A stretch of 64,000 nt of DNA from Candidatus Omnitrophota bacterium. Its GTDB lineage: Bacteria; Omnitrophota; Gorgyraeia; Zapsychrales; JANLHA01. The stretch lies in the NCBI GenBank assembly GCA_963662715.1, contig OY759724.1, forward strand, positions 332,670 to 396,669, read 5' to 3'. The notes under the pieces are model-generated. The model made no database searches, had not been told where the DNA came from, and worked only from the letters and a program-made list of their open reading frames with translations. How positions within the stretch are numbered: the first letter of the stretch is position 1; every line of letters starts with the position of its first letter. Made by a program: the position numbers and the translations under genes. Shown piece by piece: positions 3,892-20,476 of this stretch.

Positions 3892-4216
3892 TTATGCTTT
3901 CCTTTTTCTGGTAACATCGAAAACTTTTTCCGTCTATTCCAAAATTTTTAAACCAGTTACCCAATTTCAACAATCCGTTTTAAGACGCTTTCCGTAGTCC
4001 TCCTGTAGCGCGTCCATCGCCCAGCCTATGATCCTCTTTTCAAGAAAAAAAATTGTTTGTTTTTATTCAGGCATCACTCATCATATTCTTTTTCATTCTT
4101 AGTAGTCTTTAAATGTTTGTTCTACTTTTAATAAAATTTTCTAAGTCTTTTGGATAAATCCTCCACTTGCCAATCTTTATTGCATTTAACCGTTTTGTCT
4201 AGATAAGGTCTCTTAT

Positions 4217-4276
4217 CTAGTCTTCGGTGACGCAGAGTTTTTCAACCACTTCTTTAACAGTGAGGTAGTTACGCAT
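4217..4276 (-). pseudogene. Remnant of an AlpA/excisionase-type HTH gene: 19 codons, then a stop
   Basis: The reverse strand reads ATG CGT AAC TAC CTC ACT GTT AAA GAA GTG GTT GAA AAA CTC TGC GTC ACC GAA GAC TAG, giving MRNYLTVKEVVEKLCVTED*. This is the typical start of phage/ICE excisionase-type HTH proteins (M..LLTVKEVAELLGVS), truncated. The surrounding 3892..5244 has no intact ORF. Confidence 0.25.
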
Positions 4277-5235
4277 GTCTTACATTGAGTTGACCTCGTT
4301 TTTTTGACAAATTTATCAAATTACTATTTATTCCTATTAAATTTTATTGTATGCTCGTTACTCTTATAAAGTCAATGGAATTCAAGTACTATATTGTTTT
4401 ATCTCTTCAAATTCCTGCATGAATTCTCTGAACCGTGCCAGTTGCAGACGTTCTTCATCTAGTCGTACTATGCAGTGAGTTTGCGTAGCGATAAGAATCT
4501 AAGGCTGACTGGATCATTCTTATTGCTTTTAAAAGAATCTTTAATCTGTTCGGGGAGAGCTAGTGTTCCGAGAATTCTTGCTATGCATGACTAGTCTTCT
4601 CCAGTGTAACCGCAAGTTCTCTAACGACGCTGTTTATGCCGTGTGCTTCTTTAATCCTCACGTAATATTCTGTTTTCTCAAGGGAAAACTATTCTAGGAG
4701 TCTTATGTGGGTTTGATACATATTTCAGACTCTTTTTTGATTGTATCAATGTGGCCTAAGTCTTCAGAGGGGGGCAGAGACGACAACACTACTTATGATT
4801 TTTATTAACGATGTAAAAAAAAATTCAACCCAATAGGTGCGTGACTGTGTGAAGAAACTTTTTTTGAGGTGCTGGATGAATTCAATCATATCTGATGGAG
4901 AAAGGAGTATCTTCCCTCCATCAGAAAATTGCTTTCCGTTTTGCGAAAAAACGACTTGTGTTACACAAGTACGCTGGTTGCAAAACGGGCACAACTGGGG
5001 TTAATCACTTCAGTAGAAACCGCACAGTTCTGAGCCATAATTACATGCTCTTTAACTTTCCTTAACATCTTAAAATTTACAAAATCACGGGAGGGAATCT
5101 ATTTCTATTCCACCACATTTCCACCACATAAAATCGATTCAAATTGAAAAAACGCGAATGTCATGGCTGACCATGGCTTGCAGTAACTTGTAATGTAAAT
5201 CATTGATTTATATAGAGAAATGATATTTTTGGCAC

Positions 5236-5264
5236 AAAATAATGGGGTATCTTGCGATACCCCA
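5236..5264 (-). terminator. Rho-independent terminator of ssrA
   Basis: Immediately after the tmRNA 3' end the minus strand reads GGGGTATC-GCAA-GATACCCC followed by ATTATTTTG. Confidence 0.5.
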
Positions 5265-5274
5265 AAACATAAAG

Positions 5275-5664
5275 TGGAGGTGCGGGGAATCGAACCCCGG
5301 TCCTTCAGCTGCTTTCCGTAAGCCTCTACATGCTTAGTCTGCCGTTTACAATCACCTGAAAATCTCCGGCAAACAGGATATCCTCAGGCTATCCTTCTTA
5401 AGTTTCGCCGTGGCCCCGAAGGCCCTGGCCACAGCTAGCCTGCTGAATGTCCTCTTAACAGCCCACAGGCCTGACGGTTAAAAGGGCCTCTCTTTTTTAT
5501 TAAGCGAGGACTGGTTCGCCAGCAAAAATCGGTTCTACGATTTCGTTGGCTTTAGCGAGAATAGATTCGCCATTTGTGTGTGCCCGGATGATTAACGAGG
5601 CCAACCAGGCATCCTCGGCATGCCACTTACAGTCTCTCAACTGAAGTCGAGACCAATCACCCCC
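5275..5664 (-). ncRNA. ssrA: tmRNA (transfer-messenger RNA, SsrA)
   Basis: The reverse complement starts GGGGGTGATTGGTCTCGAC and ends ...GGACCGGGGTTCGATTCCCCGCACCTCCA. That gives a 7-bp acceptor stem with a G3:U70 pair, a T-arm GGTTCGATTCC and discriminator A. The internal tag reading frame is ...GCC AAC GAA ATC GTA GAA CCG ATT TTT GCT GGC GAA CCA GTC CTC GCT TAA TAA. smpB lies immediately upstream on the same strand. Confidence 0.9.
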
Positions 5665-5693
5665 AAATCATGAACAATTCGAAAGTGTCTTTT

Positions 5694-5721
5694 ATTATAC
5701 AACAAAATATTTTTGAAACAA
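5694..5721 (-). promoter_or_regulatory. Putative sigma70-like ssrA promoter (-35 TTGTTT, 16-nt spacer, -10 TATAAT)
   Basis: The minus strand reads TTGTTTcaaaaatattttgttgTATAAT about 30 nt upstream of the mature tmRNA 5' end. tmRNA is processed from a precursor, so the longer distance is acceptable. Confidence 0.35.
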
Positions 5722-5760
5722 AATATTTGCTGACTCCCCTAATGTCATCCCTTCTTTTCA

Positions 5761-6222
5761 TCAGGTCTTACGCTTGACCACCTTTAACGACTGCCGCAAG
5801 GCCCGGTCAATGTCCCGCTTTTTCATGGCTTCCCTTTTATCATAAAGCCTTTTTCCGGTCCCTAAAGCCAGTTCCACCTTGACCAGGCCGCGGTTATTCA
5901 TATAAATTTTCGTCGGCACCAGGACCTTGCCCCGCTCTATCACCATAGAAGAAATTTTCTTTATCTCCCGCTTGTGCATCAACAGCCTTCTGGCGCGGTC
6001 AGGCTCTTCGTTCATATAGCTTGCTTCTTTATAAGGGTTGATATGCAGGCTGTAAAGGATCACTTCCCCGTTTTCGATCTTCGCAAAACTGTCTTTGAAG
6101 TTCACAAAACCCGCACGGACAGACTTCACTTCGCCCCCCTTCAACTCAATCCCGCATTCCCATGTCTGGGACAGGAAATAGTTATGATAAGCTTTTTTAT
6201 TTGTCGCCACAGGTTTTGCCAT
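5761..6222 (-). CDS. smpB: SsrA-binding protein SmpB
   Basis: 153 aa with strong similarity to SmpB (MAKPV...KKAYHNY...GIELKGGEVKS...LLMHKREI). Adjacent to ssrA. Confidence 0.9.
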   Translation of the reverse strand: MAKPVATNKKAYHNYFLSQTWECGIELKGGEVKSVRAGFVNFKDSFAKIENGEVILYSLHINPYKEASYMNEEPDRARRLLMHKREIKKISSMVIERGKVLVPTKIYMNNRGLVKVELALGTGKRLYDKREAMKKRDIDRALRQSLKVVKRKT

Positions 6223-7756: not shown

Positions 7757-9190
7757 ATGGACCATACTCAAACTCAACTTCTGATCATCGGGGCCGGCCC
7801 CGGCGGATATGTCGCTGCCTTTCACGCCGCTGATTCCGGCCTGAATGTTACTTTAATTGACCGCGAAAAAAATCCCGGAGGCGTTTGCCTCTTCCGCGGC
7901 TGCATCCCTTCCAAAGCTTTACTGCATGTGGCGCGCATCCTTTCCGACGCCAGGGACGCCAAAGCGTTTGGGGTAGAATTCCGCGAACCGGATATTCATC
8001 CGGAAATTGTCCGCAAATGGAAGAACAGCGTCGTTGATAAATTGACCGGGGGGCTGGGGCAGCTGTCCCGGCAGAGAAACATCAACTTTATCCAGGGAGA
8101 AGCTGCTTTTCTTGATTCTCAAAATGTCGAAGTCAAAACAGCTGACGGCACGTTGTCTCAAATCCATTTCGACCATGCTATCATCGCGACCGGGTCTCAG
8201 CCTGTCACCCTTCCCTTTGCCCCTGAGTCGCCGCGGGTCATGGACTCCACGGCGGCTTTGGAATTAGCTGAAATCCCGCCGAGACTTCTTGTTATCGGCG
8301 GAGGATATATCGGACTGGAACTGGGGTCGGTTTATGCCGAACTGGGCAGCACGGTATCTGTCGTAGAAATGACGCCGCAGCTCCTTCCGGGAGTCGATCC
8401 GGACTTAAGCATGATCCTGAAAAAAAGGCTCCGGCTGAAATTCGAGGCCATCAAATGTCATACCCGGGTCACAGGACTGCAGGACACGGGGTCGGCCGTC
8501 GAGGTGACTTTCGAAGACGCCAAGGGGCAGACAAATTCCGATTCATACGACAAAGTCCTTATCGCCATCGGCCGCAAACCGGACGCCTCCTCCCTGCGGC
8601 TGGAAAAAACAAAAGTCCGATTAACAGACCGCGGGTTTATTCAAATCAATGCCCAGCGCCGGACAGACGACCCCGCTATTTACGCGATCGGGGATGTCGC
8701 CGGGAACCCTATGCTGGCGCATAAAGCGTCTCACGAAGCCCGGGTGGCGGTGGACGCGATCCTCGGGAAGAACACCGCTTTCTCCCCGCAGGCCATCCCG
8801 GCCGTGGTCTTTACCGATCCGGAAATTGCCTGGTGCGGCCTAACGCAAGCCCAGGTGCAGGATCAAGGCCCGGACATCAAAATTCTAAAATTCCCCTGGG
8901 CGGCTTCCGGACGGGCTGTCACGTTAAACCGCACTGACGGGTTGACAAAGATTATGACAGACGCCCGGACAGGCCGCATCCTTGGTGTGGCTCTCGTTGG
9001 GACCGGGGTCGGAGAAATGATCGCGGAAGGGGTTCTGGCTGTCGAGATGGGAGCGGTTGCCGAAGATCTTATGCTGAGCATCCATCCCCATCCGACGCTA
9101 TCGGAAACGATGATGGAAGCCGCCGAAAGTTTTTTCGGGCAGAGCATGCATATTTACAAGCCGCCCCGGAAAAAGCAGGACCTCATTTAA
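7757..9190 (+). CDS. lpdA: Dihydrolipoyl dehydrogenase (E3 component)
   Basis: 477 aa. FAD-binding GAGPGGY, the redox disulfide region CLFRGCIPSK, the NAD-binding GGGYIG and a C-terminal dimerisation domain. Confidence 0.9.
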   Translation: MDHTQTQLLIIGAGPGGYVAAFHAADSGLNVTLIDREKNPGGVCLFRGCIPSKALLHVARILSDARDAKAFGVEFREPDIHPEIVRKWKNSVVDKLTGGLGQLSRQRNINFIQGEAAFLDSQNVEVKTADGTLSQIHFDHAIIATGSQPVTLPFAPESPRVMDSTAALELAEIPPRLLVIGGGYIGLELGSVYAELGSTVSVVEMTPQLLPGVDPDLSMILKKRLRLKFEAIKCHTRVTGLQDTGSAVEVTFEDAKGQTNSDSYDKVLIAIGRKPDASSLRLEKTKVRLTDRGFIQINAQRRTDDPAIYAIGDVAGNPMLAHKASHEARVAVDAILGKNTAFSPQAIPAVVFTDPEIAWCGLTQAQVQDQGPDIKILKFPWAASGRAVTLNRTDGLTKIMTDARTGRILGVALVGTGVGEMIAEGVLAVEMGAVAEDLMLSIHPHPTLSETMMEAAESFFGQSMHIYKPPRKKQDLI

Positions 9191-10188
9191 TTTTCTTCTA
9201 TCCGGGTTAATAATTGCTTCAATTCCGGGCCGAAAATTTTTGAAAACTCGATAGAACCCAGCTGGTTCAGATGCTGGGAATTATAGAAATACTTTTCCTG
9301 CCGCGCCATTTCTGCCGAAGAGTAATCCATAAAAACAATGTCCCGGCCGTCACTCAGTTTTCTATAGATGGCTCTCACTTCATCCAAATTGACAACAAAC
9401 TCGTTGAACTGATAATAAACCGGGGCATAAACAAAAAACAGCCGGATACGTTTCTGCCGGCACAGCTGAACAAGCTCATTCAGAGCGGCCTTCCCCTCCT
9501 CGGTCATTTGCCCTTTAAGGCCTTGCGGATAAAGCCTTTTAACGGTTTTGACATCTTCCTCCTTATTCCAGTCTATGTTCACCGGGCAATAACCTTTGTA
9601 ACAGTCAACCGTATCTTCCCGGCCGGTCAACCCCTGGACCGCATCGACCGTAAAGTCATGACTTAACAGGGCAAAGCTGTATAAAGGGAAATACCTGGCT
9701 AAGATAAAATGTTTCGAAATCCCGGAAAGGGTTTGATAAATCTCTTTTTCGTTCAAATAAGGGATAAACTGTCCCGGATTATACGCCCGGGGCTTACGAA
9801 GGGTATTGCGTCCCACCACCTGAACAATAGCTTCCGGCGGGCGGTTGTATTTCAGGTAGACTTTTAACCGGGCCACCTGCAGGGCCAGGGAATTTCCCAG
9901 CAGGGCGATATTATAGACATCTTTATTCAGGTCCTCTTCCAGCAGAGAAACGTCCATGCCGGCTTGCGCCCGGGAAGCTCCAGTTATCAGGATGTCGGCA
10001 TTAATTTCTCCCCGGACAATACGGTTCCATTCCCCGAAATCGCCGCTTCTCCTCGCGTAAAACCCTTCCATCAAATAAGCCTGGACAGCCAGACTGAGGA
10101 TGACAAATATAACGGGAAAAGCGATCATGTCTCTTGCATTCTGATTCATGGCGTTAAAATTGGAAATAAATAAATTCGATCCCTTCAA
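9187..10188 (-). CDS. DltD/AlgJ-like membrane-anchored protein, the probable partner of the adjacent MBOAT acyltransferase
   Basis: 333 aa with an N-terminal TM helix and an extracytoplasmic domain. It overlaps the MBOAT gene's 3' end by 35 nt, which suggests translational coupling. An alternative start at M14 (10149) lies 4 nt after the MBOAT stop. The family assignment rests on context and weak resemblance. Confidence 0.4.
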   Translation of the reverse strand: MKGSNLFISNFNAMNQNARDMIAFPVIFVILSLAVQAYLMEGFYARRSGDFGEWNRIVRGEINADILITGASRAQAGMDVSLLEEDLNKDVYNIALLGNSLALQVARLKVYLKYNRPPEAIVQVVGRNTLRKPRAYNPGQFIPYLNEKEIYQTLSGISKHFILARYFPLYSFALLSHDFTVDAVQGLTGREDTVDCYKGYCPVNIDWNKEEDVKTVKRLYPQGLKGQMTEEGKAALNELVQLCRQKRIRLFFVYAPVYYQFNEFVVNLDEVRAIYRKLSDGRDIVFMDYSSAEMARQEKYFYNSQHLNQLGSIEFSKIFGPELKQLLTRIEEN

Positions 10189-11587
10189 ATTTCCCCAGAA
10201 AAATAATGCTGAAAAGTACCGCGTAATAAAAAATCCAGCGTGCGAACTTAGGCATCCTTAACGTCAGGTCTCTCAGCCGCCAGCGGCTCTGCAGCAAATG
10301 CACGATAATGAGCAGAGCTATCAAGGCCAAAGATACGGTAAAATCAAAAGTTTTATACGGGAAAGCGTCGTTGCCCCCCGGGCTGAACATATTTATTATA
10401 AGAGTTTTCACATCACGCAGCGACTGGGCTCTAAAAAATATCCATGAAAAAAGCACCAGGTGGTACGTGATGGCGATCCGAAGCATTTTGTACAGGGCCG
10501 GGACTCTCTCCAAATTCAGGAAAGACACCGCCCGGCGGCGCCAGCCTTCCGTCCAGACAGAAAAAAGCATATAAAATCCGTGAAGCGCCCCCCAGACAAC
10601 AAACGTCCAGTTCGCGCCGTGCCAAAGACCGCTGATAACAAAAACGAAAATAAGATTAAGGTACCACCGCTGTACCGGGACGCGGTTGCCGCCGAGAGGA
10701 ATGTACAAATAGTCCCGGAACCAGGTCGACAAAGAAATATGCCAGCGCCTCCAGAACTCGGCAATGGATACGGCAAAATAAGGGCGCCGGAAATTCTCCA
10801 TGATTTCAAAGCCCATGATCCTGGCGGCTCCGATAGCAATATCCGAATAGCCGGAGAAATCGCAATAAATTTGAAAAGCAAAAAACGTCGTGGCGATGTA
10901 AACCGTCGCGCCATGCCATTGCGCGGGATGCCCGTAAACAAAATTCACAAAAAAGGCCAAGCGGTCCGCGATGACGATCTTTTTAAAGAATCCCCATAAC
11001 ATAAGTTTCAGGCCGTCGCACATCCTGGGATAGTCGAAATCATGTTTTTTAAAAAACTGCGGCAACAAGTGGCCGGCCCGCTCAATCGGGCCTGCGACCA
11101 GCTGCGGGAAGAAAGATACGTATAAGGCAAAAACCCCTAAATGCCTTTGAGGCTCCAGTCTTTTACGGTAGACATCAATCGTATAGCTTAGCGTCTGAAA
11201 CGTATAAAAGGATATCCCTAAAGGAAGCAGGACATTCAGATGAGGGAGATACGCGGACAAACCGAGGGTCTTGAACAAGGCGTTAAAACTGGACGAGAAG
11301 AAATTAAAATATTTAAAAACCGCCAGAATGCCCAAATTCGTCATAAGGCTCAGGACAAGAAACATCCGGCGTTTCACAGGGTTTTCCGTCCGCCCCATCT
11401 GCCATCCGGCAGTGTAATCCACCAAGGTTGAAACCACCAGTAAAAGAACATACGGGATGTTCCAGAACATATAAAACACGTAACTCGCCAGAAGAAGCCA
11501 GGCCCAGCGGAAACGGAAAGGGAAAAGGAAATAAAGGGTAACAACGACAGGAAAAAATATTAAAAATTCTAGAGAATTAAAAAGCAT
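10154..11587 (-). CDS. MBOAT-family membrane-bound O-acyltransferase (AlgI/DltB/PatA-like)
   Basis: 477 aa, polytopic. Conserved MBOAT histidine region WRRWHISLSTWFRDYLYIPLGGNR and the C-terminal ...GLWHGANW motif. Confidence 0.8.
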   Translation of the reverse strand: MLFNSLEFLIFFPVVVTLYFLFPFRFRWAWLLLASYVFYMFWNIPYVLLLVVSTLVDYTAGWQMGRTENPVKRRMFLVLSLMTNLGILAVFKYFNFFSSSFNALFKTLGLSAYLPHLNVLLPLGISFYTFQTLSYTIDVYRKRLEPQRHLGVFALYVSFFPQLVAGPIERAGHLLPQFFKKHDFDYPRMCDGLKLMLWGFFKKIVIADRLAFFVNFVYGHPAQWHGATVYIATTFFAFQIYCDFSGYSDIAIGAARIMGFEIMENFRRPYFAVSIAEFWRRWHISLSTWFRDYLYIPLGGNRVPVQRWYLNLIFVFVISGLWHGANWTFVVWGALHGFYMLFSVWTEGWRRRAVSFLNLERVPALYKMLRIAITYHLVLFSWIFFRAQSLRDVKTLIINMFSPGGNDAFPYKTFDFTVSLALIALLIIVHLLQSRWRLRDLTLRMPKFARWIFYYAVLFSIIFLGKFEGIEFIYFQF

Positions 11588-11755: not shown

Positions 11756-14700
11756 TTAATTATAATTCAGCATGCTGAGCTTATCATGTTCGTCATCGAA
11801 AAAGAACTGAATATCCGACTCCGCCGGTTCCTGCTGAGGCTTCCGGTCTGCGCCTTTTTCCGCCTCTGTGCCCCGGCCCCGGGTTGTCCCTCGGGCCGGA
11901 ACCGCATCCTCGGCACTCATGCCCAGCAGCATCGGCAGGTTGGGAATCGGCGTAATGTTGATAATAACCGGCAAGAACCCTTCTATATTCATATTCTGAA
12001 TCGGCTGTTGCTGAACAGGTAAAGGAACACCGCTTCCGTCCCGTCTGATCTGCAGGTTCAAAAGCGCCGGATTAAGATCGATACCACCAAGCGGCGAAGA
12101 AGTCGCCGGCGCGGCTCCTATATTCGCTGCCAGCCGTTGAACGGTATTGATAACCTGGCCCACGCCGCCCTTACTGTTCTTTTCTGTTCTCATAAGTTTG
12201 CTGAGGTCACGTTTCGCCTGTTTGGTCGAGATGCTGCCATCAGCGACAGAGACCAGAAGCTCCCTTGTCCCTTTATTTTTCAGATTAAATTTCGTCATAG
12301 CCTTGTCAACGGCTTCGATCGGAGAAGAAACGGCCGCGCTGGCGAGTTCAATGACTTCCGCTGTTGCCAACAGGTTTTGCACGGCAGATTCTTCATTTAC
12401 CCTGTCAAGGACTTCCGTAATGTCCCGGTCGACCCAATCTCCAGGTAATGTCACAGCAACATCAATCCCGGCCTCCTGCCATTGAAAAGCGACACCGGTT
12501 TCATCGGCCCTTACCCCGTCATAACGCAAAACCAAGTTTGCGCCTTCGACAAAAAAGTAGGTCCTCTTCCAAGGGAGGTCCTCCCCTTCATCAAATTCCG
12601 GCAAATTGGTTTTTACGGTCAGCTGTTCAGACAGCTTAAAGGGCACGGACAAATCGGTCAAACGTGTCTCCAGCTGACTCATGGTGTTGATCACAGATTC
12701 TAAGCGCGTCGCCTCTTCGATCGGGATGTCCCGGGCTAATTCAATCTGCAGCTCTTTGGCCGGGAGAATCTCTCCGACCTGCCGTAGAACATCCGCGACC
12801 TGATTCCGGACTGTCTCTAGCCTGGCGCGGTCCTTTTCCACCTCTATTTCAACCTGGGCCAAAAGCTGTTCGGCCTGGGTTAACAAGTCAGCCACCTTTT
12901 CTTTTTCATTCGCGGCAAACTGAATAGGAGAAGAGGCCCCCAACGACATGAAGTCAATTAACGGGAACCGTTCCGGACGCCCGGCATCAAGCATGAGCAG
13001 CTGCAAATCCCGGTTCTCATCCTCCGTCACCCGGACAGCCTCATTAAACACCCGGGCGGCCATAACTAATATTCTCTCAGCCAGAGCCCTGTCAACACCG
13101 TCAATTTCCATTAATTTATTTTCAGCTTCTGTTCTCCGGTCAGCCTTCTCTAATTCTATCGCCTCCTGGATGGCCTGGTAAGCATCGGCCGTCACAAGGT
13201 TATAGCCTAAGGCCAAACTGGCCGGAAGCAGCCTGAACATGGCCTCTCCGACAGGGTAAGCTCCGTCCATCAGCTTGATGCTGAGGATATGGGCGGCTTT
13301 GGCCAAAGGAGGATTCTGTTCAATAAAGACGATCTGATTGGCCAATAAAGCCCGCATAGCGGCATGAATCCAGCCGTTCTGGGCCCCGTTGACCTGCTTA
13401 TCAATATCCACGATTTGATTAATAAGCTGTACGTTCTCTTCGGCTAACCCAATCGTTGAGAGTATCGGGGAAGACACGCCTAAATTCGTATAATCCAAGA
13501 ACTCGATATACTTCGCCTCAACCCCGGTAAGAGCTACGGCAAAAGGCCCGTCTGTAGGAGTCCAGGTTAACAAGACATCCTGAAGAGCAAAAGGATTAGC
13601 ATACTCAAAATCCCCTTGTATTTCCCGGGATACCAGCACAGTTGCATCATCCGGAGCCCTTAATTCCAGACGTGTTGTACTATCAGGCTCATGGACATTA
13701 ACATACAAAACATTTCCGTCATGCTTGAATAAGATCCTTCTTGAAGCGCCCTGATTATTGTCAAGGTTCCGTCCCTCGCTGACCAGAGGCTCTCCCAGCA
13801 CGGCAAAATTCCCCAGCTGGCTTGCTGCTTCATAATTCTCAACTTCGTTATATTTCGTTCTTGCCCGCATCACGGCCGCCTGCCATTCCCCTGCCGAAGC
13901 AGCCGTCTCCAAGGCCTCGGCCAGGACAAACGGACTCTCTGACATCCAGTCGCCGGAAAGGGTTAATTCTTTTATATCCGTCTTGTCGTCCCTGGCGCGT
14001 AAAACAAGCCGGGTCGTCCCTTGTGTATGGTCCCGGTGAGCATAAAGGATACGTCCGTCATGCCCGAACAGGGCTCTCAAAGACGGGCCGTCATTTTCTG
14101 CCCAATTCTGTCCTTCCCGGACCATTGTTTTAACCGGAGAAGCAGCCAACAACGACTCTCCGATATAGGGGTCATGCTGAGCATGCAGGTCTCTGCCTGC
14201 CTCCATATTAGGGATTCCATTCTCGTCTGTCCTCAGCAAGGCAGCTCCCAGACCGGTTCCAGGCCCGATATAAAGAATGCGGGCATTGTCGATTCTTTGC
14301 CCGGACAACTCATATAATGCTGTGGCCCCGGCAAAAGCATCGTTCATCCACACCACGTTATAAGGTTCTCCTAATAAACCCTGCAACGTGCTGGCAGGGT
14401 TCACACCGAAAAATTGCGGGCGGTTGGGCCAGCTTTCTTGAGCGATAGCGCCATCAGCCTCTTTTTTCCCCGGATGCCCGACCCCGATTTCAAAGGAAAC
14501 CTCGTATTGTTCAGTCTCTAATTCATTCCGTAAAGTATTAATAAGAGGAAGCAGTGCGCTGTAATATTCTTCCGGTTGAACTTGTGCGATATCACGGTCT
14601 AATACAAACCGCTGCATCCCTCCTACAAATTGCACAAAATTTCCGTTTTCATCAAACTGGATCCCCTGCATCTTGGCAGAGGTCCCGCCCACATCAACAC

Positions 14701-17700
14701 CGATCACAACCTTGTTCCGTCTAAGGTCTTGATCAACCAGCAATGCTGCTCCTAATATCCCTGCTTCTTCCGCAACCATTTGATTTTCAGCTGAAAGGAT
14801 CGGCAGTATCGTAACGCCGGTTCCCAACACGCTTCGGATCTTCTGTTCCAGGATATTGCGGATAAAAGGATTATTGCTAATAGCCCCGCCGATCTCAATA
14901 ACGTTAATGCCTTTCCACTCATCTTCGATGGCTCTTAAAGCTTCTCCATCCTGACTCCGCAAGGCCCCTTCCATCAGCAGAGACGCAAACTGCGCATAAA
15001 CACCCCCGACAAATTCCAGCACCTGAGTGATAACATCTGCGGCCTCGGAATCGGGATAAGTTTGCAAGACCCAGCCCATAAACCTGGTATCCAGATTCCC
15101 CTGATATTCGGCCAACAGGTCCGTAAACAGGTCCTTGTTTTCCTTAAGGAGCTGTTCATTCACCTGGGCGAACATCCGGTTAATCGCCGTAGTCGAAGAA
15201 AGGTTCTCCGTTGTTAATCTTTCTGTTGTAAAAGACACCAGCACTTCACGCCCGTCCCGCAGGGAAATGGCTACAGGGATGGCTTCTAACGGCGAAGAAC
15301 CCAAGTTATTTTTTAAAGCGACAATATCTTTCACGGAATAGGGCTTCATGAAAATATCCGTAAAAAGGCCGCCTTTTAAACCTGTCGCGGCATCAACCTG
15401 CTGAAGCTCCTCCAGATTCGGGGCAAAACCCGTCGTGAGGATGATGGGGAGATCTCTTACCGCCCGGATCTCTCTGGCAAGTTGTTCGCCGGTCATCTGA
15501 GGCATGACGAAATCTGTCACCACCAGATCAATATCCGGATTCTCGTTAAACACTCTCAAGCCTTCTTCTCCGTTATCGGCGCGAATGACTTCCGCTTCGC
15601 CGAAAACCGCACCGAAGAGCTGCGCAGCCACATCTCCGACCATCTCTTCATCGTCCACAACAAGAATTTTCTTGATGGGCGTCGAAACCACGGCAGCAGT
15701 GGTGGTGGTAATTTTATCTTTTAAAGCGGTTAACTGCTCAAACTCATAAGGTTTATCCAGGACTTCATCAAATAATCCGCCCTTTAAACCGGTCGCTTCA
15801 TCCACGGCCGTTAATGTGTCGTCTATCGTCCCTGACAACAAGACAACCGGGACATTGTTTCCTGCGGCCCTCAACTCACGGGTGAACTGATCTCCGGTCA
15901 TAACAGGCATTTGCAAATCCGTTACAACCAGGTCAAAATCCCCGGACTCCCGGAAGGTCTGAAGGGCTTCCTGCCCGTTGTCTGCGGTAACGACTTCCAC
16001 GTCCCCGAACACGTCTTTCAAATCTTCGCTCACCAGGAGCAAAATGGATTTTGAATCATCGACCAGGAGGATCTTCTGAATCGGAGAAGCCACCGGGGCC
16101 GCTCTCAAGGAAGACTCTACCTGCGAGATAAACGCCTGCAAGTCTTCTGAATATTTGTTCGCCTGAATGATTCCCGACAATATTTCACTGACTTCTGTCT
16201 CTGTCGCCTGCGCGGCGGCAACATAAGCCCCTTCTATCTCAAAGAATACTTCGGCCACGATTTCCCCTGTCCTCCCATCATATAATTTATGAGAAATCTG
16301 GTTGGCCCCAGCAACCTCTTCCCCGATAACCATTACAGGGTTATTATCCCGCATAACCAATATGGTACGGGCAAAGGATTGCGGATGATAAGTCCGGATG
16401 ATACCCGTCTGCCCCTGGGCCATGGTCAACAATTCCAGCCCCGTTGTATCGATGACCGGGGATGAAGCAGGCGGCGTTGTCCTTACGAGCTCTAAGGCTC
16501 TAGCCGCATCCTCTTCCGTAATTCCAATCAAATCATTACGGAAAGAAACCCCGGCGCTTCTTTCTGCATCTTCCAAGCTCCCTGCCGTAAAATTGAACTT
16601 CCGCAGATCCTCCAGCCGAAAAGTAAAATACTGCGATATTTGGGCCGCTGTCGGAACCCGCCCTTGACTTGCTTCTATATCCATCCATTGCCGAAACAAC
16701 TCAATATCATCCCTATCCACCTCATATTCGCCCGTTACCATTCTCTCTATGGCAGCCGGCAACCCCGTCATCCATCCCCGATATCTCGGATGACTCAAGA
16801 TATACTTCTCTACCCCTACGGGCAGAAACGTTATGTCTTTTTCCGGGTCGGAGGAAAAATGCTCCCGGATATTCGTGGAGGATGTCCCGAACAAATTAAT
16901 ATGTCCTATCGGCCTTATAAATCCTCTTGCCATGTATTCCTTCATTTGAGCCACTTCCACCGGCATAGGCAGACTTTCAAATAATTCCCTGAAGTTGAAG
17001 GCCAACATCATGTCGATATTATTTCTTTGAAGATGGTCGGCCAACTCCTCTTTCATCCGGTCCATCTTTAAGACCGTATCCGGCTGAGGATGATCCCCGT
17101 CCATTTTAGGAGTCCTGTACCCATCGGTATCCATGTCGCTTGACGGGGCATAAACATGCATATGGTCCCCGCCGACCGCTGTATAGACCCACGTTGTCTT
17201 TCCTGTTCTGCCCCCGTTGATTTCAATCAGTTTCTTGTACTTCGTTTCGCCATCCGCCTCTGAACCGTTCAAAACTTTTGACAAGACAAGAAGTCCGTCA
17301 AAAAGATCCACCCATTCCTGCGCCATTTCATCGCGCTCCTCAAAAGTCGGGTTCAGCCCCTTCTTCTGCTTGCGGTAATCAAAGGCATGGTTGACGACAC
17401 CAACCTGGGAAATTTTCAATTGCGCCATGGCCCGCAAAACCGGTTCGAACTGGCCGAAATGCAGAGGATTCAACGCTGAGGCATAAACACCGACGATCGT
17501 ATCCCCGGTATCTGTTTCCTGCCCCGTAAACTCCGCGTCCTGTTCACTCCAGCGCACCTGCTGCAATTGCATCTCCCCGTTCATCATATGGACGCCGATT
17601 TCCCATAAAGATTCCTTCACCTTTCGTGTCCATTCACCGGCCAATTGCTCGTTTCGACCCGGTTCCTGACGCAGACTCCGCCTCACAAGATTATCAAAGA

Positions 17701-20476
17701 CCTGTTCCACGTCCACCCGGATCTCTTTGTTCACGTTCGGAAAAATGCTTTTGGCATATTCATATTCCTTAACCCGGTTCTCTTCATGCGTCCCTTGATT
17801 CGCGGTGTAGACCAAAGAACGCTCAAGCATCCGGTAAGGGTTCCCTTTTTCCTCTATCATGCGCCTGAACCCGCTTTCCATAACGATCTTCTTCCGTCCC
17901 GCCTCGACAACAAGGGCCATACCAAACGTGACATCTGTCCCGCTGTCGATTTCCTCTACCGTGGTAATATCGATCTGGCGTCTTTCTTTATTTAAAAAGT
18001 ACGTACGGATTTCACTCAGTTCTGCCAACTGAACTTCCCGGCGTTCCTGCCCGGCCTGTTCATAAGCCCATACCTGATTCAGAACTTCTCCCATACCCAT
18101 CCGCTGATTGTAGCTGTTGCCGAACATCACTCCGTCCCGGTACGGGATCCCGTCCGGGTTGATTCCGTCCTCTAATTCAACTAAAATATCTCTCCAATCC
18201 CGTTTCGTTTCATCACCGGCCCTGGCTTTCATCATCATAATCGGCGTAATACCATACCCGAAAAACTCATGGCTCGTTGTGCCTTCAGCTTCAGAATAAA
18301 CGCTCACCAACTGAAACAGGTCATCAAAATTTATTGTTCTGGTCCTTCCTGTCTCCGTCTCCACAACATTATCCTCTTTGGCGTGGATAAAATTCGCCAA
18401 TGAATCTTCCCGGATACTCCGCGGCGCCCCCAGCGGTGAGGAGACGGCCGTCTGATCAAGCAGCATGAGCTCGTCTTCGTCAAGCTGCTGCAGCAGGGCC
18501 GTTTCCGCATCTGACAGGGCCTGGGAAACCTCCGGCCCCTTTTGAAGAAGCTGTGTGGCGGCCTCTATTAAAACGCCCAACTGTTCCGGCACCTTGGCGA
18601 AAGTGTCGTCCGGCAACGCGTCGCTTCTTATCAAATGCAGCAAACTTAAAATCTTCCGCTCTCTTCGCAGTTCACTCCTGGCCACAGCCCGGTTTTCATC
18701 AGCCAGAGCTGACCGGTCTCCGTAATTTTGGGCCGCTTTCTCCAACCCGGCGATATCCTCTTGGTATAACTGCATAATTTCATCGGGAATGGTAACCGCA
18801 CCCCCACGCGCCCTCACAATAGTTTCCAAAGCTTCAAACACGTTCATCGGCGCTACGCCTGTCATCAACTCTTCCAAACGCCCTTCTTCCTGCGGCGCTA
18901 AGGTTGATTTAAGAATATCGGACATAATAAGGGCGAGACGCTTTGTTCTGGTTCTGGTAAAGGTCTTGGAAGCATATTCCAGCAAACGCCGGCTCTCCTC
19001 GGTCAGGTTCTGGAAAGATTCTATTTTCACCAGGTCATTAAGAGATACTCCCGCCTGAATCTTTTCGGCAATATCCGCACTCACGCGGCCGATCAGGGCC
19101 AACCCGTCGTCAACGGTGATCCGCTGGGCCGCGGCTGATGTGACATACCCCAGATACTGGCGGGCTAACTGCGTGTTCTGTTCGATCACATCGGCAAAAT
19201 TCGATATAGGGGAAGCCACAATAGCGCTCTGCGCCGACAATGTTTCAGAAGGGTTCTCCGCCAGGATAGCCGCCACCTGCACCACCGGGCTTGAAACACT
19301 CATCCCGGCATCGATCCTTGCTCTTAAAGGAGACGACGGCGGGACATTACGCAGTTCGACGGACGTGATCGAGCTGGAGACCTCGGAAGCATCAACCCCG
19401 CCGGAAAAATATTTTCGCGGGATGACTTTTTTCGTCGACATATCATAATCTTCCCGGATATAGTCATAAACGCCTTTTTTAAATGCCGCCAGGTACTGTT
19501 CATAAATTTTCTGTTTAATTTCCTTGTCGTTAACGTCCACGCCTTTCACCTTGCCTTTGTTGACATAGACTTGTCCAAGGAGACTCGCTCTTAAATTCTC
19601 TTTATACCAGGTCGCTAAAATCAGGGAATTGAAAATCTGCCGCAGATTAGCAAAATTCTTGCCCTCATTGACTTCCTTTTCTATTTCCGGCAACAAAACT
19701 TCCCGGACAACATCCGAAGAAACCTTGCTAAGAGTCTTTACATAATCCTGGGTGATCTTTGTGGTTCCTAATTTTTTATTATCCAGGTTCCTTTCCAAAG
19801 CTAAGTAATCCTCTTCCAGCATAACTTTCAGATGACTGTCAACCACAAAAGCGCTGCCGTTATGCTCAACAACCAAGGCGTCTTCCGGGATAATCCATAT
19901 TTTGTTGAACGTATTGATCGGAATATTTGTCGTACCATATTCTTTTTGTGCGCGGTCATAGACTCTTTGCCAAAATTCCTGGCCGAGATCATCTTCCGGA
20001 TAGATCATCGAGGCCGTTAACTGCTTCAGCATATAGTCCTGAGCCAGGAGGTCGCGGCCCATTTCTGTCATGCTGAAACCTTCGGGAACAATACGGTCGC
20101 TTTCATAAGGAGAAAGGTTAACCCACAAATCTTTTTCCGGGATCGTCAGGGCGGCGAGAAAATATTTAATGAGTTTGCTGGATTCTGCTTCGAGTTCTTC
20201 TCCGGTCAATTGGTCGTTTCCGGAATCGATAATAAAATCGAATTTTAAAGGATTTTCCGGGTCGATCTTCACCCCCTTCAAACAGGCCGGGGCATAAATA
20301 TCGCTTTTCATAACCATGGCCCCGGGCATCGGCAGATCCAAAACCGTCGGGGCTGGATCAGCCGCGGATACCGGCGCGGGTGGAATGATGAGGCTTATCA
20401 GAAATGAATAACTGATAAACGAGACTAAAATACGATACGACCAATGATCACGACTATTCCGGAAATAGTTAAACAT
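11756..20476 (-). CDS. Giant (2906 aa) multidomain protein. It has an N-terminal signal peptide or anchor, a TagD-like cytidylyltransferase module, an ASKHA/ROK-like kinase module, two receiver domains, an internal duplication and recurrent SSP junction motifs.
   Basis: Uninterrupted 8.7-kb ORF with a strong RBS (AGGAGGG, 11 nt upstream of the ATG at 20476). N-terminus: MFNYFRNSRDHW-[ILVSFISYSFLISLII]-PPAPVSA|ADP. aa ~993-1050 GVYASALNPLHFGQF...VGVVNHAFDYRKQKKG aligns with TagD TYGTFDLLHWGH...VVAISTDEFNLQKQKK. aa ~1860-2100 carries IGGAISN...AGILGAALL, then VVIGVDVGGTSAK and ILYIGPGTGLGAALL (ROK/ASKHA motifs). aa 1466-1588 and 1601-1723 are two REC domains with the DD, D, T and K residues all present. 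Confidence 0.85.
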   Translation of the reverse strand: MFNYFRNSRDHWSYRILVSFISYSFLISLIIPPAPVSAADPAPTVLDLPMPGAMVMKSDIYAPACLKGVKIDPENPLKFDFIIDSGNDQLTGEELEAESSKLIKYFLAALTIPEKDLWVNLSPYESDRIVPEGFSMTEMGRDLLAQDYMLKQLTASMIYPEDDLGQEFWQRVYDRAQKEYGTTNIPINTFNKIWIIPEDALVVEHNGSAFVVDSHLKVMLEEDYLALERNLDNKKLGTTKITQDYVKTLSKVSSDVVREVLLPEIEKEVNEGKNFANLRQIFNSLILATWYKENLRASLLGQVYVNKGKVKGVDVNDKEIKQKIYEQYLAAFKKGVYDYIREDYDMSTKKVIPRKYFSGGVDASEVSSSITSVELRNVPPSSPLRARIDAGMSVSSPVVQVAAILAENPSETLSAQSAIVASPISNFADVIEQNTQLARQYLGYVTSAAAQRITVDDGLALIGRVSADIAEKIQAGVSLNDLVKIESFQNLTEESRRLLEYASKTFTRTRTKRLALIMSDILKSTLAPQEEGRLEELMTGVAPMNVFEALETIVRARGGAVTIPDEIMQLYQEDIAGLEKAAQNYGDRSALADENRAVARSELRRERKILSLLHLIRSDALPDDTFAKVPEQLGVLIEAATQLLQKGPEVSQALSDAETALLQQLDEDELMLLDQTAVSSPLGAPRSIREDSLANFIHAKEDNVVETETGRTRTINFDDLFQLVSVYSEAEGTTSHEFFGYGITPIMMMKARAGDETKRDWRDILVELEDGINPDGIPYRDGVMFGNSYNQRMGMGEVLNQVWAYEQAGQERREVQLAELSEIRTYFLNKERRQIDITTVEEIDSGTDVTFGMALVVEAGRKKIVMESGFRRMIEEKGNPYRMLERSLVYTANQGTHEENRVKEYEYAKSIFPNVNKEIRVDVEQVFDNLVRRSLRQEPGRNEQLAGEWTRKVKESLWEIGVHMMNGEMQLQQVRWSEQDAEFTGQETDTGDTIVGVYASALNPLHFGQFEPVLRAMAQLKISQVGVVNHAFDYRKQKKGLNPTFEERDEMAQEWVDLFDGLLVLSKVLNGSEADGETKYKKLIEINGGRTGKTTWVYTAVGGDHMHVYAPSSDMDTDGYRTPKMDGDHPQPDTVLKMDRMKEELADHLQRNNIDMMLAFNFRELFESLPMPVEVAQMKEYMARGFIRPIGHINLFGTSSTNIREHFSSDPEKDITFLPVGVEKYILSHPRYRGWMTGLPAAIERMVTGEYEVDRDDIELFRQWMDIEASQGRVPTAAQISQYFTFRLEDLRKFNFTAGSLEDAERSAGVSFRNDLIGITEEDAARALELVRTTPPASSPVIDTTGLELLTMAQGQTGIIRTYHPQSFARTILVMRDNNPVMVIGEEVAGANQISHKLYDGRTGEIVAEVFFEIEGAYVAAAQATETEVSEILSGIIQANKYSEDLQAFISQVESSLRAAPVASPIQKILLVDDSKSILLLVSEDLKDVFGDVEVVTADNGQEALQTFRESGDFDLVVTDLQMPVMTGDQFTRELRAAGNNVPVVLLSGTIDDTLTAVDEATGLKGGLFDEVLDKPYEFEQLTALKDKITTTTAAVVSTPIKKILVVDDEEMVGDVAAQLFGAVFGEAEVIRADNGEEGLRVFNENPDIDLVVTDFVMPQMTGEQLAREIRAVRDLPIILTTGFAPNLEELQQVDAATGLKGGLFTDIFMKPYSVKDIVALKNNLGSSPLEAIPVAISLRDGREVLVSFTTERLTTENLSSTTAINRMFAQVNEQLLKENKDLFTDLLAEYQGNLDTRFMGWVLQTYPDSEAADVITQVLEFVGGVYAQFASLLMEGALRSQDGEALRAIEDEWKGINVIEIGGAISNNPFIRNILEQKIRSVLGTGVTILPILSAENQMVAEEAGILGAALLVDQDLRRNKVVIGVDVGGTSAKMQGIQFDENGNFVQFVGGMQRFVLDRDIAQVQPEEYYSALLPLINTLRNELETEQYEVSFEIGVGHPGKKEADGAIAQESWPNRPQFFGVNPASTLQGLLGEPYNVVWMNDAFAGATALYELSGQRIDNARILYIGPGTGLGAALLRTDENGIPNMEAGRDLHAQHDPYIGESLLAASPVKTMVREGQNWAENDGPSLRALFGHDGRILYAHRDHTQGTTRLVLRARDDKTDIKELTLSGDWMSESPFVLAEALETAASAGEWQAAVMRARTKYNEVENYEAASQLGNFAVLGEPLVSEGRNLDNNQGASRRILFKHDGNVLYVNVHEPDSTTRLELRAPDDATVLVSREIQGDFEYANPFALQDVLLTWTPTDGPFAVALTGVEAKYIEFLDYTNLGVSSPILSTIGLAEENVQLINQIVDIDKQVNGAQNGWIHAAMRALLANQIVFIEQNPPLAKAAHILSIKLMDGAYPVGEAMFRLLPASLALGYNLVTADAYQAIQEAIELEKADRRTEAENKLMEIDGVDRALAERILVMAARVFNEAVRVTEDENRDLQLLMLDAGRPERFPLIDFMSLGASSPIQFAANEKEKVADLLTQAEQLLAQVEIEVEKDRARLETVRNQVADVLRQVGEILPAKELQIELARDIPIEEATRLESVINTMSQLETRLTDLSVPFKLSEQLTVKTNLPEFDEGEDLPWKRTYFFVEGANLVLRYDGVRADETGVAFQWQEAGIDVAVTLPGDWVDRDITEVLDRVNEESAVQNLLATAEVIELASAAVSSPIEAVDKAMTKFNLKNKGTRELLVSVADGSISTKQAKRDLSKLMRTEKNSKGGVGQVINTVQRLAANIGAAPATSSPLGGIDLNPALLNLQIRRDGSGVPLPVQQQPIQNMNIEGFLPVIINITPIPNLPMLLGMSAEDAVPARGTTRGRGTEAEKGADRKPQQEPAESDIQFFFDDEHDKLSMLNYN

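What the first reader, a model, noticed from the sequence alone, without database searches (positions are those of the whole stretch)
14177..17509. TagD-like cytidylyltransferase module plus a permuted ASKHA/ROK kinase-like module inside the giant protein, pointing to sugar/polyol-phosphate nucleotide chemistry
aa ~993-1050 (GVYASALNPLHFGQFEPVLRAMAQLKISQVGVVNHAFDYRKQKKG) aligns motif-for-motif with glycerol-3-phosphate cytidylyltransferase TagD (GTFDLLHWGH...VVAISTDEFNLQKQKK). The first His of HxGH is retained and the second is replaced by Gln. Around aa 1860-2100 the C-terminal half-signature of ROK/BadF kinases (IGGAISN...AGILGAALL) precedes the N-terminal phosphate-1 motif (VVIGVDVGGTSAK) and the central GPGTGLGAALL motif. 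That order suggests a circularly permuted or duplicated ASKHA fold. A kinase plus a cytidylyltransferase is the logic of RfaE- or LicC/TarI-type activation pathways, here fused into a non-enzyme-like scaffold.
Basis: partly seen in the sequence, partly recalled or inferred. Interest (0 to 1): 0.6.

Follow-up and report, generated by a model that had tools for sequence, protein, structure and literature searches.

The report
NadD-like and permuted sugar-kinase modules
Inside one 2,906-residue exported modular protein of an Omnitrophota bacterium sit a nucleotide-transferring enzyme module related to NAD-synthesis enzymes (not to TagD) and a sugar kinase whose two halves are in swapped order; both are real but divergent versions of known enzyme folds, and nothing shows that they work as a coupled pathway.

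Summary

The "TagD-like" module (aa 960-1340) does belong to the HxGH nucleotidyltransferase superfamily, but its closest relatives are NadD/NMNAT adenylyltransferases:
- Family profile against the PDB: NadD E=1.7e-9; TagD is absent even at E<=10.
- hhalign: NadD 96.7% probability over 184 columns; TagD 18% over 14 columns.
- AlphaFold model pLDDT 95.8, and all 50 top PDB fold matches are NadD/NMNAT.
- HxGQ replaces HxGH here and in about 20 of 65 relatives. The other motifs are kept.

The ASKHA module (aa 1727-2115) is a circularly permuted ROK/hexokinase-type sugar kinase:
- Its two halves match a non-permuted 398-aa family in swapped order (65.7 and 31.3 bits).
- The re-ordered sequence matches end to end (101.5 bits).
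- All catalytic motifs are present.

The two modules are about 390 residues apart, separated by an unknown module and two intact receiver domains. None of the 64 relatives of the transferase module carries the kinase, so a coupled activation pathway is not supported. The protein belongs to a large Omnitrophota "carrier" family with conserved N- and C-terminal domains and interchangeable enzyme cargo. I rate it a new variant of a known kind.

The parts
11756..20476 (-). Single ORF of 2,906 aa: a modular protein with a signal-peptide-like N-terminus. It has 13 module junctions of the form [SAT][ST]P[IVL].
   Evidence: ORF list and translation. An identical 2,906-aa protein, P0005, is in the representative library. 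The junction motif occurs 13 times against 0.6 expected from shuffles.
19334..20476 (-). Conserved N-terminal 'carrier' domain (aa 1-381), beginning with a signal-peptide-like segment (aa 1-39).
   Evidence: Shared by 19 of the 64 relatives of the transferase module at E 1e-25 to 1e-156, and by at least 556 metagenome stretches. No Pfam, NCBIfam or PDB-sequence match. The signal peptide is inferred from the sequence only.
17600..18439 (-). Conserved extension of unknown fold (aa 680-959) that precedes the transferase module.
   Evidence: Found directly upstream of the transferase module in 23 relatives. No Pfam or PDB match to a profile of 11 sequences.
16457..17599 (-). NadD/NMNAT-like nucleotidyltransferase module (aa 960-1340). 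The Rossmann-like core is at about aa 993-1235, followed by a helical tail.
   Evidence: 65 relatives, 13 of 26 short ones hitting PF01467. Profile against the PDB: NadD 1.7e-9 and NMNAT 3e-5. hhalign to B. subtilis NadD 96.7%. AlphaFold pLDDT 95.8, pTM 0.92. The top 50 Foldseek PDB matches are all NadD/NMNAT.
17450..17470 (-). NPLHFGQ (aa 1003-1009): the ATP-binding T/HxGH motif with the second His replaced by Gln (Q1009).
   Evidence: Aligned to DPPHNGH of NadD. About 20 relatives have HxGQ and about 35 have HxGH.
16865..16885 (-). TSSTNIR (aa 1198-1204): the C-terminal ISSTxxR motif of the superfamily. The module also keeps DYRKQ (aa 1033-1037; nt 17366-17380) and GGDHMH (aa 1102-1107; nt 17156-17173).
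   Evidence: Aligned to EVSSTMIRE of B. subtilis NadD. S and R are invariant, and R/K, D and H nearly invariant, in 40 family members.
16082..16465 (-). Module of unknown function (aa 1338-1465) between the transferase and the receiver domains.
   Evidence: No family hit and no relatives among the fetched proteins.
15677..16090 (-). Receiver domain 1 (aa 1463-1600) with the canonical residues DD (1473-1474), D1520, S1548 and K1575.
   Evidence: Pfam Response_reg E=4.9e-29 with two stretches. Residues read from the sequence.
15290..15685 (-). Receiver domain 2 (aa 1598-1729) with the canonical residues DD (1608-1609), D1655, T1681/T1682 and K1711.
   Evidence: Pfam and NCBIfam. Residues read from the sequence.
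14732..15289 (-). First part of the permuted ASKHA module (aa 1730-1915), equivalent to the C-terminal half of a normal sugar kinase. It holds the sugar-binding Glu (TTENLSS, E1757), the ADENOSINE motif IGGAISN (1862-1868) and the CONNECT-2 helix AGILGAAL (1905-1912).
   Evidence: Aligns to P0001 residues 214-387 and to HMM positions 229-390 of the non-permuted family.
14141..14731 (-). Second part of the permuted ASKHA module (aa 1916-2112), equivalent to the N-terminal half. It holds PHOSPHATE-1 GVDVGGTS (D1928, T1932), the catalytic base in MNDAFA (D2046), PHOSPHATE-2 GPGTGLG (2071-2077) and E2092...H2098.
   Evidence: Aligns to P0001 residues 22-182, to ROK glucokinase P0003 residues 63-139 and to HMM positions 20-193. 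Weak Pfam Glucokinase and NCBIfam sugar-kinase hits.
11759..12100 (-). Conserved C-terminal domain of the carrier family (aa 2793-2906; GGIDLNP...FLPVIINITP).
   Evidence: Shared by 18 relatives of the transferase module and by 41 of 80 metagenome family members.

Best explanation
The region is part of one gene for a 2,906-residue modular protein of an Omnitrophota bacterium. It is probably exported or membrane-anchored. The protein belongs to a large family in which a conserved N-terminal domain (behind a signal-peptide-like segment) and a short conserved C-terminal domain bracket interchangeable enzyme 'cargo' modules.

Within the flagged coordinates the cargo is, in order:
1. A NadD/NMNAT-type HxGH-superfamily nucleotidyltransferase whose ATP-binding motif reads HxGQ.
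2. A 125-residue module of unknown fold.
3. Two canonical receiver domains.
4. A circularly permuted ROK/hexokinase-type ASKHA sugar kinase. The chain starts after strand 3 of domain II, runs to the normal C-terminal helix, is joined by about 8 residues to the normal N-terminus, and ends after the PHOSPHATE-2 hairpin.

Shown: the fold and family assignments, the permutation, and the presence of the catalytic motifs.

Inferred:
- The transferase moves AMP from ATP onto a phosphorylated small molecule (a mononucleotide or similar), as NadD does, with Gln standing in for the second His.
- The kinase phosphorylates a hexose.
- The receivers modulate the neighbouring modules.
- The two enzymes are independent cargo rather than a dedicated two-step pathway.
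- The permutation arose by tandem duplication followed by loss of both outer halves.
For: Transferase:
- 65 relatives in an exhaustive HMM search. Their consensus is canonical (NPLHWGH ... D.RKP ... DGE ... G.DH.H ... ASST.IR).
- 13 of 26 short relatives hit PF01467.
- The family profile hits 20+ NadD/NMNAT structures (best 1.7e-9), PPAT only at 0.4, and no TagD.
- hhalign to NadD is full length at 96.7%.
- The AlphaFold model has pLDDT 95.8. The Foldseek top 50 are all NadD/NMNAT, with TM-score normalised to the target of 0.62-0.76.
- The residues aligned with E. coli NadD Arg-46 and Asp-109 (K1036, D1104) are conserved (PMC1249556).

Kinase:
- Two collinear but swapped BLAST segments to the non-permuted P0001 and to a ROK glucokinase.
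- The re-ordered sequence aligns end to end, 31% identical, including across the junction.
- The HMM test gives 101.5 bits in one hit when re-ordered, against 65.7 + 31.3 bits in swapped order for the natural sequence.
- The AlphaFold model (pLDDT 74) matches single-copy ROK kinases over only about 170-190 columns at about 4 A. It matches the tandem-duplicated 100-kDa hexokinases over about 400-430 columns, as expected for a permutant.
- P0001 sits beside a PMI-PMM fusion, a LacI-type regulator and mannanases.

Carrier family and independence of the modules:
-.
- Multi-enzyme long proteins in Omnitrophota are reported, with REC, PGM/PMM and ROK kinases co-occurring (bioRxiv 10.64898/2026.06.07.730766; 10.1101/2023.11.21.568195).
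Against: - No biochemical data exist, and substrates are inferred from distant relatives (13-16% identity to NadD structures).
- In E. coli NadD, changing the second His (H19A) leaves 0.62% activity (PMC1249556), so HxGQ may mean low or altered activity.
- The single-sequence score against the NCBIfam NadD models (about 18 bits) is far below their cut-offs, so this is not an orthologue of NadD.
- The kinase model has only moderate confidence (pTM 0.59). It was built from a hand-assembled alignment in which each relative was split into two rows. I could not run a non-sequential superposition.
- If the N-terminal segment is a cleaved signal peptide, the ATP-dependent modules would lie outside the cytoplasm, where ATP is scarce. 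The simple 'working enzymes' reading leaves this unexplained.
- The permuted kinase has not been found in any other protein, so its conservation cannot be assessed.
Confidence: 0.72

Rival explanations
1. One reading: the kinase and the nucleotidyltransferase form a fused two-step activation pathway. A sugar or polyol is phosphorylated and then converted to an NDP/CDP-activated donor, in the manner of RfaE/HldE or LicC/TarI.
For: - Both modules keep their catalytic motifs.
- HldE domain II shows that PF01467-type enzymes can adenylylate sugar-1-phosphates (my knowledge).
- A relative (L003) carries a phosphohexomutase module immediately upstream of the same transferase module.
- Sugar-nucleotide enzymes recur in the family.
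Against: - The transferase is NadD-like, not TagD-like.
- The modules are not adjacent.
- 0 of 64 relatives of the transferase carry the kinase.
- A kinase product (a 6-phosphate) would still need a mutase, which is absent from this protein.
- HldE uses a PfkB kinase, not an ASKHA kinase (my knowledge).
Confidence: 0.13
2. One or both modules are pseudo-enzymes: ligand-binding or scaffolding domains that keep the fold but not catalysis. For example, they could be nucleotide or sugar sensors wired to the two receiver domains, or binding modules displayed on the cell surface.
For: - The second His of HxGH is replaced. H19A in E. coli NadD leaves 0.62% activity.
- The predicted export signal would put ATP-dependent domains where ATP is scarce (sequence).
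- NMNAT is known to have a non-catalytic chaperone role (PDB 5z9r title).
Against: - Gln at this position is conserved in about 20 divergent relatives (25-69% identity), together with every other active-site motif. That argues for selection on a working site.
- Every ASKHA ATP- and sugar-binding motif and the catalytic Asp are intact.
- TrpRS works with TIGN in place of HIGH (my knowledge).
Confidence: 0.13
3. The resemblances are chance motif matches in a low-information giant ORF, or an assembly chimera.
For: Pfam and NCBIfam report nothing significant for either module from the single sequence.
Against: - Profile, fold and shuffle tests are all strongly significant.
- The same 2,906-aa protein is present independently in the protein library.
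- Relatives at 55-69% identity exist in other Omnitrophota genomes.
Confidence: 0.01

Closest known systems
NadD / NMNAT (nicotinate- or nicotinamide-mononucleotide adenylyltransferase; PF01467 clan, TIGR00482)
   Same: - Same Rossmann-like fold.
- Full-length profile alignment.
- N-terminal G-x-x-x-x-NP-x-H-x-G motif.
- Basic residue after strand 2, and the G-x-D motif.
- C-terminal SST-x-IR motif followed by 'LP..V..YI....RY'.
   Different: - The second His of HxGH is Gln.
- Only 13-16% identity to solved NadDs, far below the family cut-offs.
- About 60 extra residues are inserted in the core and about 100 residues form a helical tail.
- It is always preceded by a 280-residue extension of unknown fold.
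- It is embedded in a multi-module exported protein.
- It has family-specific motifs (D-x-RKP, DGE, G-x-DH-x-H, PDT).
- The substrate is unknown.
   Same: Same superfamily. HxGH and a Ser/Thr-rich C-terminal motif are shared.
   Different: - Only 14 columns align (hhalign probability 18%).
- Not among the PDB profile hits at E<=10.
- Not among the top 50 fold matches.
ROK / hexokinase-type ASKHA sugar kinases (PF00480, PF02685; e.g. polyphosphate/ATP-glucomannokinase 1WOQ, NagK, NanK, glucokinase)
   Same: - PHOSPHATE-1 (DVGGT), catalytic N-D, PHOSPHATE-2 (GPGTGLG) and ADENOSINE (GG) motifs.
- C-terminal AG-x-LGAA helix.
- Sugar-binding Glu/His positions.
- Fold matches at about 4 A over each half.
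   Different: - Circularly permuted: the new termini lie after strand 3 of domain II, and the old termini are joined.
- No cysteines, so the ROK zinc motif is absent.
- Below all Pfam and NCBIfam cut-offs.
- Embedded after two receiver domains.
P0001 family: 371-424-aa stand-alone 'predicted NBD/HSP70 family sugar kinases' from metagenomes
   Same: Closest relatives of the kinase module. They are 25-31% identical over the full length once the module is re-ordered.
   Different: - They have the normal order and are stand-alone.
- They are encoded next to a PMI-PMM fusion and mannan-degrading enzymes.
Omnitrophota multi-enzyme long or giant proteins ('Archaeovorins'; the 'Module 2 sugar metabolism' set of REC + PGM/PMM + ROK kinase)
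   Same: Same phylum. Both have a signal peptide, many cytoplasmic-type enzyme modules in one chain, and receiver domains together with a sugar kinase.
   Different: - Much shorter (2.9 kaa against 10-147 kaa).
- Defined N- and C-terminal carrier domains.
- Both enzyme modules here are invisible to Pfam, one because it is permuted and one because it is divergent. Pfam-based surveys would therefore miss them.

Membership tests
HxGH (HIGH) nucleotidyltransferase superfamily / PF01467 CTP_transf_like | Rossmann-like alpha/beta nucleotide-binding fold | tested here: met
   AlphaFold model pLDDT 95.8. Foldseek gives 82 PDB matches at E<=0.001, and the top 50 are all NadD/NMNAT.
HxGH (HIGH) nucleotidyltransferase superfamily / PF01467 CTP_transf_like | T/HxGH ATP-binding motif | tested here: not met
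   The window has H1006-F-G-Q1009: the first His and the Gly are kept and the second His is Gln. The wider family consensus is canonical HWGH.
HxGH (HIGH) nucleotidyltransferase superfamily / PF01467 CTP_transf_like | C-terminal ISxTxxR-type motif | tested here: met
   TSSTNIR at aa 1198-1204. S and R are invariant in 40 sequences.
HxGH (HIGH) nucleotidyltransferase superfamily / PF01467 CTP_transf_like | Pfam model match | tested here: inconclusive
   The window module gives no hit on its own, but 13 of 26 relatives hit PF01467, best at 2e-5.
NadD / NMNAT | Full-length sequence-profile similarity to characterised NadD | tested here: met
   PDB profile search: 1yul 1.7e-9, 4rpi 5e-7, 1kam 5e-7. 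hhalign 96.7% over 184 columns (the NadD sequence was recalled from memory and agrees with the fragments printed).
NadD / NMNAT | Score above the curated equivalog cut-off (TIGR00482, PRK00071) | tested here: not met
   18.4 bits against a cut-off of 112, and 17 bits against 187. It is therefore not a NadD orthologue.
NadD / NMNAT | [quoted passage not shown] | tested here: inconclusive
   The Arg-46 equivalent is K1036 and the Asp-109 equivalent is D1104. Both are conserved. The His-19 equivalent is Q1009.
NadD / NMNAT | Adenylyl transfer to NaMN or NMN | not testable with these tools
   Needs an enzyme assay.
TagD-type glycerol-3-phosphate cytidylyltransferase | Sequence or fold closer to TagD/CCT than to other superfamily branches | tested here: not met
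   hhalign 18% probability over 14 columns. Absent from the PDB profile hits at E<=10 and from the top 50 fold matches.
ASKHA sugar kinases (ROK / glucokinase / hexokinase) | PHOSPHATE-1, PHOSPHATE-2 and ADENOSINE motifs and the catalytic Asp | tested here: met
   D1928/T1932, G2073-T-G, G1863-G and D2046, all aligned with the family-invariant columns.
ASKHA sugar kinases (ROK / glucokinase / hexokinase) | Two RNase-H-like domains in the canonical N-to-C order | tested here: not met
   The order is swapped. Fold matches cover half the model against single-copy kinases and the full length only against tandem hexokinases.
ASKHA sugar kinases (ROK / glucokinase / hexokinase) | ROK zinc-binding CxCGxxGC motif | tested here: not met
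   There is no cysteine in aa 1727-2115. The motif is also absent from the P0001 family but present in ROK P0003.
ASKHA sugar kinases (ROK / glucokinase / hexokinase) | Pfam or NCBIfam gathering score | tested here: not met
   Glucokinase 16.2 bits against a cut-off of 22.1. The NCBIfam sugar-kinase models score 14-20 bits.
RfaE/HldE-type bifunctional kinase-adenylyltransferase | A PfkB-family kinase fused directly to a PF01467 domain, with the pair conserved in relatives | tested here: not met
   The kinase is ASKHA. There are about 390 aa and two receiver domains in between. 0 of 64 relatives pair the two modules.
Omnitrophota N-/C-terminal 'carrier' family (unnamed) | Conserved ~340-aa N-terminal domain after a signal-like segment, plus the ~65-aa C-terminal GGIDxNP domain | tested here: met

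The most novel reading that the evidence does not exclude
The conserved N-terminal and C-terminal domains define a dedicated export, delivery or polyprotein system of Omnitrophota, with at least 556 loci in metagenomes. This system would carry interchangeable cytoplasmic-type enzymes out of the cell. The cargo includes this otherwise unseen circularly permuted sugar kinase and an HxGQ NadD-like transferase. The SSP[VIL] junctions would serve as processing sites, so the modules would be released or act in a host or prey cell where ATP is available.
Probability: 0.15. Interest if true: 0.8.

Novelty: new variant of a known kind. Interest (0 to 1): 0.5.

Why it matters
1. I found no circularly permuted ASKHA sugar kinase described in the searchable literature. 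The only hit for 'ASKHA' plus 'circular permutation' mentions permutation only in general terms about how kinase fold groups are defined. It would be a clean natural example of permutation by duplication in a classic two-domain fold. It also shows why domain surveys miss such modules.

2. The HxGQ sub-family of NadD-like transferases (about 20 members) tests how essential the second His of the HIGH motif really is.

3. Published surveys of Omnitrophota long proteins rely on Pfam. Both modules here are Pfam-invisible, so the enzyme content of these proteins is probably under-counted.

4. The carrier family with swappable cargo raises a question: what are ATP-dependent enzymes and receiver domains doing behind a signal peptide in ultra-small, possibly host-dependent bacteria?

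Tried and rejected
- Single-sequence Pfam, NCBIfam and PDB searches of both modules gave only sub-threshold hits.
- The word-indexed homologue search found only 1 relative of the transferase and 3 of the kinase. The exhaustive HMM search was needed.
- TagD membership was rejected.
- The 280-aa extension before the transferase, aa 680-959, has no Pfam or PDB match even with an 11-sequence profile.
- The N-terminal carrier domain has no PDB sequence match.
- A first alignment with the relatives split into halves was mis-aligned. It was replaced after local MAFFT trials.
- The genome-collection scan with the 40-sequence alignment failed. With the 2-sequence alignment it gave 2 Omnitrophota loci only.
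- The window protein is not on record in the contig index, so its source sample is unknown.
- About 1 Mb of related loci held no second permuted ASKHA module.

Full report
**What is there**

The flagged interval lies inside one uninterrupted ORF, 11756-20476 on the minus strand, encoding 2,906 aa. Residue n starts at nt 20476-3(n-1).

The protein is cut into modules by a tetrapeptide [SAT][ST]P[IVL]. It occurs 13 times against 0.6 expected from shuffles, and it falls at every module boundary.

From the single sequence, Pfam and NCBIfam recognise only two receiver domains: aa 1469-1584 and about 1603-1720, E=4.9e-29. Both receivers keep the acidic pair, the phospho-acceptor Asp, the Ser/Thr and the Lys.

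**The nucleotidyltransferase module**

A word-indexed search found a single relative. It is a 1,157-aa protein of a Candidatus Omnitrophica MAG, 55% identical over aa 680-1340. It has the same N-terminal and C-terminal domains but nothing else.

An exhaustive HMM search of 1.84 billion representatives with that pair gave 65 proteins. One of them is the window protein itself (P0005).

The relatives' consensus is a canonical HxGH enzyme: AANPLHWGH ... G.D.RKP ... DGE ... YLVG.DH.H ... PDT..K ... ASST.IR. Thirteen of 26 short relatives hit PF01467.

Evidence placing the module with NadD/NMNAT rather than TagD:
- A 40-sequence profile hits more than 20 NadD and NMNAT structures: P. aeruginosa NadD 1.7e-9, M. 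tuberculosis and B. subtilis NadD 5e-7, human NMNAT 3e-5.
- The same profile hits PPAT only at 0.4, and no TagD, CCT or ECT even at E<=10.
- hhalign of the profile to B. subtilis NadD aligns 184 columns covering residues 3-188 (probability 96.7%, E=4.4e-10).
- hhalign to TagD aligns only the 14 columns around HxGH (probability 18%). The NadD one agrees with the fragments printed.
- AlphaFold2 with this alignment gives pLDDT 95.8 and pTM 0.92.
- The 50 best Foldseek matches in the PDB are all NadD/NMNAT, with E about 1e-6 to 5e-5 and TM-score per target 0.62-0.76.

So the module is real, but it is NadD-like, not TagD-like.

The His-to-Gln change is not decay. About 20 relatives at 25-69% identity share HxGQ and about 35 have HxGH, while all other motifs stay conserved. 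The residues aligned with E. coli NadD Arg-46 and Asp-109 (K1036, D1104) are retained. In E. coli, H19A leaves 0.62% activity (PMC1249556), so altered kinetics are plausible.

The module is always preceded by a 280-aa extension of unknown fold, found in 23 relatives and without any match.

**The kinase module**

BLAST of aa 1727-2115 against a 398-aa stand-alone protein (P0001) gives two segments in swapped order. Query 193-346 matches P0001 22-182, and query 8-179 matches P0001 214-387. The same is seen with a bona fide ROK glucokinase.

When the module is re-ordered (aa 1916-2110 followed by 1730-1915) it aligns end to end with the P0001 family at 31% identity, including across the junction.

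An HMM built only from eleven non-permuted relatives gives these results:

| Sequence tested | Result |
|---|---|
| Natural module | two domain hits, 65.7 and 31.3 bits, in swapped order |
| Re-ordered module | one hit of 101.5 bits |
| Best of 200 shuffles | 4.8 bits |

All ASKHA motifs align with family-invariant columns:
- PHOSPHATE-1: D1928, T1932.
- Catalytic Asp: D2046.
- PHOSPHATE-2: G2073-T-G.
- ADENOSINE: G1863-G.
- The C-terminal AG.LGAA helix.
- Sugar-binding positions E1757, E2092 and H2098.

There is no cysteine in the module, so the ROK zinc motif is absent.

The AlphaFold run used an alignment in which each relative was supplied as two rows. The model has moderate confidence, pLDDT 74.4 and pTM 0.59.

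Its secondary-structure order is the expected one: domain-II remainder, C-terminal helix, domain I, then the first three strands of domain II.

Foldseek finds only sugar kinases:
- Single-copy ROK kinases (1WOQ, NagK, NanK, AlsK) align over about 170-190 columns at about 4 A.
- The tandem-duplicated 100-kDa hexokinases align over about 400-430 columns, with a meaningless global rmsd. That is what a circular permutant should do.

P0001 is encoded between a LacI-type regulator and a PMI-PMM fusion, near GH5, GH113 and GH1 genes. This suggests a hexose or mannose kinase family.

**Are the two modules a pathway?**

They are about 390 residues apart, separated by an unknown module and the two receivers.
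- None of the 64 relatives of the transferase module contains the kinase.
- Of 80 further proteins sharing the N-terminal domain, one has the transferase and none has the kinase.

Cargo in relatives is very varied:
- In relatives of the transferase module: PGM/PMM, GT20, GT4, cytidylate and guanylate kinases, PPDK, GGDEF, PRK, APH and transaldolase.
- In other carrier-family members: HEAT repeats, receiver domains, PGM/PMM, UDPGP, M28, HPr, PP2C and GlcN6P isomerase.

One relative (L003, an Omnitrophota MAG) has a phosphohexomutase directly before the transferase module. So sugar-phosphate and nucleotide chemistry is a recurrent theme, but a fixed kinase-transferase pair is not.

**Context**

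The close relatives that could be traced to a genome record, P0004/L002 and L003, are both annotated as Candidatus Omnitrophota or Omnitrophica MAGs.

It has no Pfam, NCBIfam or PDB match.

Multi-enzyme long proteins of Omnitrophota are already described. They mostly carry signal peptides or TM anchors, and they show a co-occurring 'sugar metabolism' set that includes receiver domains, PGM/PMM and ROK kinases. The present protein is a small member of that phenomenon.

What is new here is the permutation of the kinase and the HxGQ NadD-like family, both of which Pfam-based surveys would miss.

Flanking genes are ordinary: MBOAT, DUF192, an M48 peptidase, Maf and LptF/G.

**Verdict**

The pathway interpretation is not supported as stated. 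This is a new variant of known kinds and moderately interesting. The main open question is why ATP-dependent modules sit behind an export signal.

Noticed in passing
window 19334-20476 (-) and 11759-12100 (-); loci L007-L086: The N-terminal ~340-aa domain and the C-terminal ~65-aa 'GGIDLNP...PVIINITP' domain define a very large uncharacterised family. It has at least 556 metagenome stretches, sometimes two genes per contig. The internal enzyme cargo is variable, and there is no Pfam, NCBIfam or PDB match.
   Followed up: partly
window 11756-20476 (-): aa 381, 395, 421, 679, 1338, 1463, 1598, 1727, 2112, 2335, 2515, 2717, 2793: The junction tetrapeptide [SAT][ST]P[IVL] (mostly SSPV/I/L) marks every module boundary: 13 observed against 0.6 expected. 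It is also present 5 times in the closest multi-module relative (P0006/L003) but absent from most other family members. It may be a processing or modification site.
   Followed up: partly
L003:6902-12922 (+): An Omnitrophota MAG protein of 2,006 aa carries a complete phosphoglucomutase/phosphomannomutase module directly upstream of the same HxGQ NadD-like module, between the same carrier domains.
   Followed up: partly
L004:6942-12159; L005: The closest non-permuted relatives of the kinase module (P0001 family) lie between a LacI-type regulator and a fused phosphomannose isomerase-phosphomannomutase. Nearby are GH5, GH113 and GH1 genes and a GDPGP1-like gene. This looks like a mannan/mannose-utilisation locus.
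   Followed up: partly
window 13466-14143 (-), aa 2112-2337: The module after the kinase contains an internal duplication: LFGHDGRILYAHRDH..TTRLVLRARDD and ILFKHDGNVLYVNVHE..TTRLELRAPDD. It has no family match. A similar unit may recur near aa 2640-2700.
   Followed up: no
window 9187-11587 (-): Immediately downstream of the giant gene, on the same strand, are an MBOAT-family O-acyltransferase (10154-11587) and an overlapping 333-aa ORF without any Pfam match (9187-10188). This could be an acylation pair.
   Followed up: no
window 1-6000: G+C is 0.37-0.41 here against about 0.46-0.52 in the rest of the window. This may be a foreign or differently constrained segment.
   Followed up: no
window 16082-16465 (-), aa 1338-1465: A 125-residue module lies between the transferase and the first receiver domain. 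It has no relatives among any of the fetched proteins and no family match.
   Followed up: no
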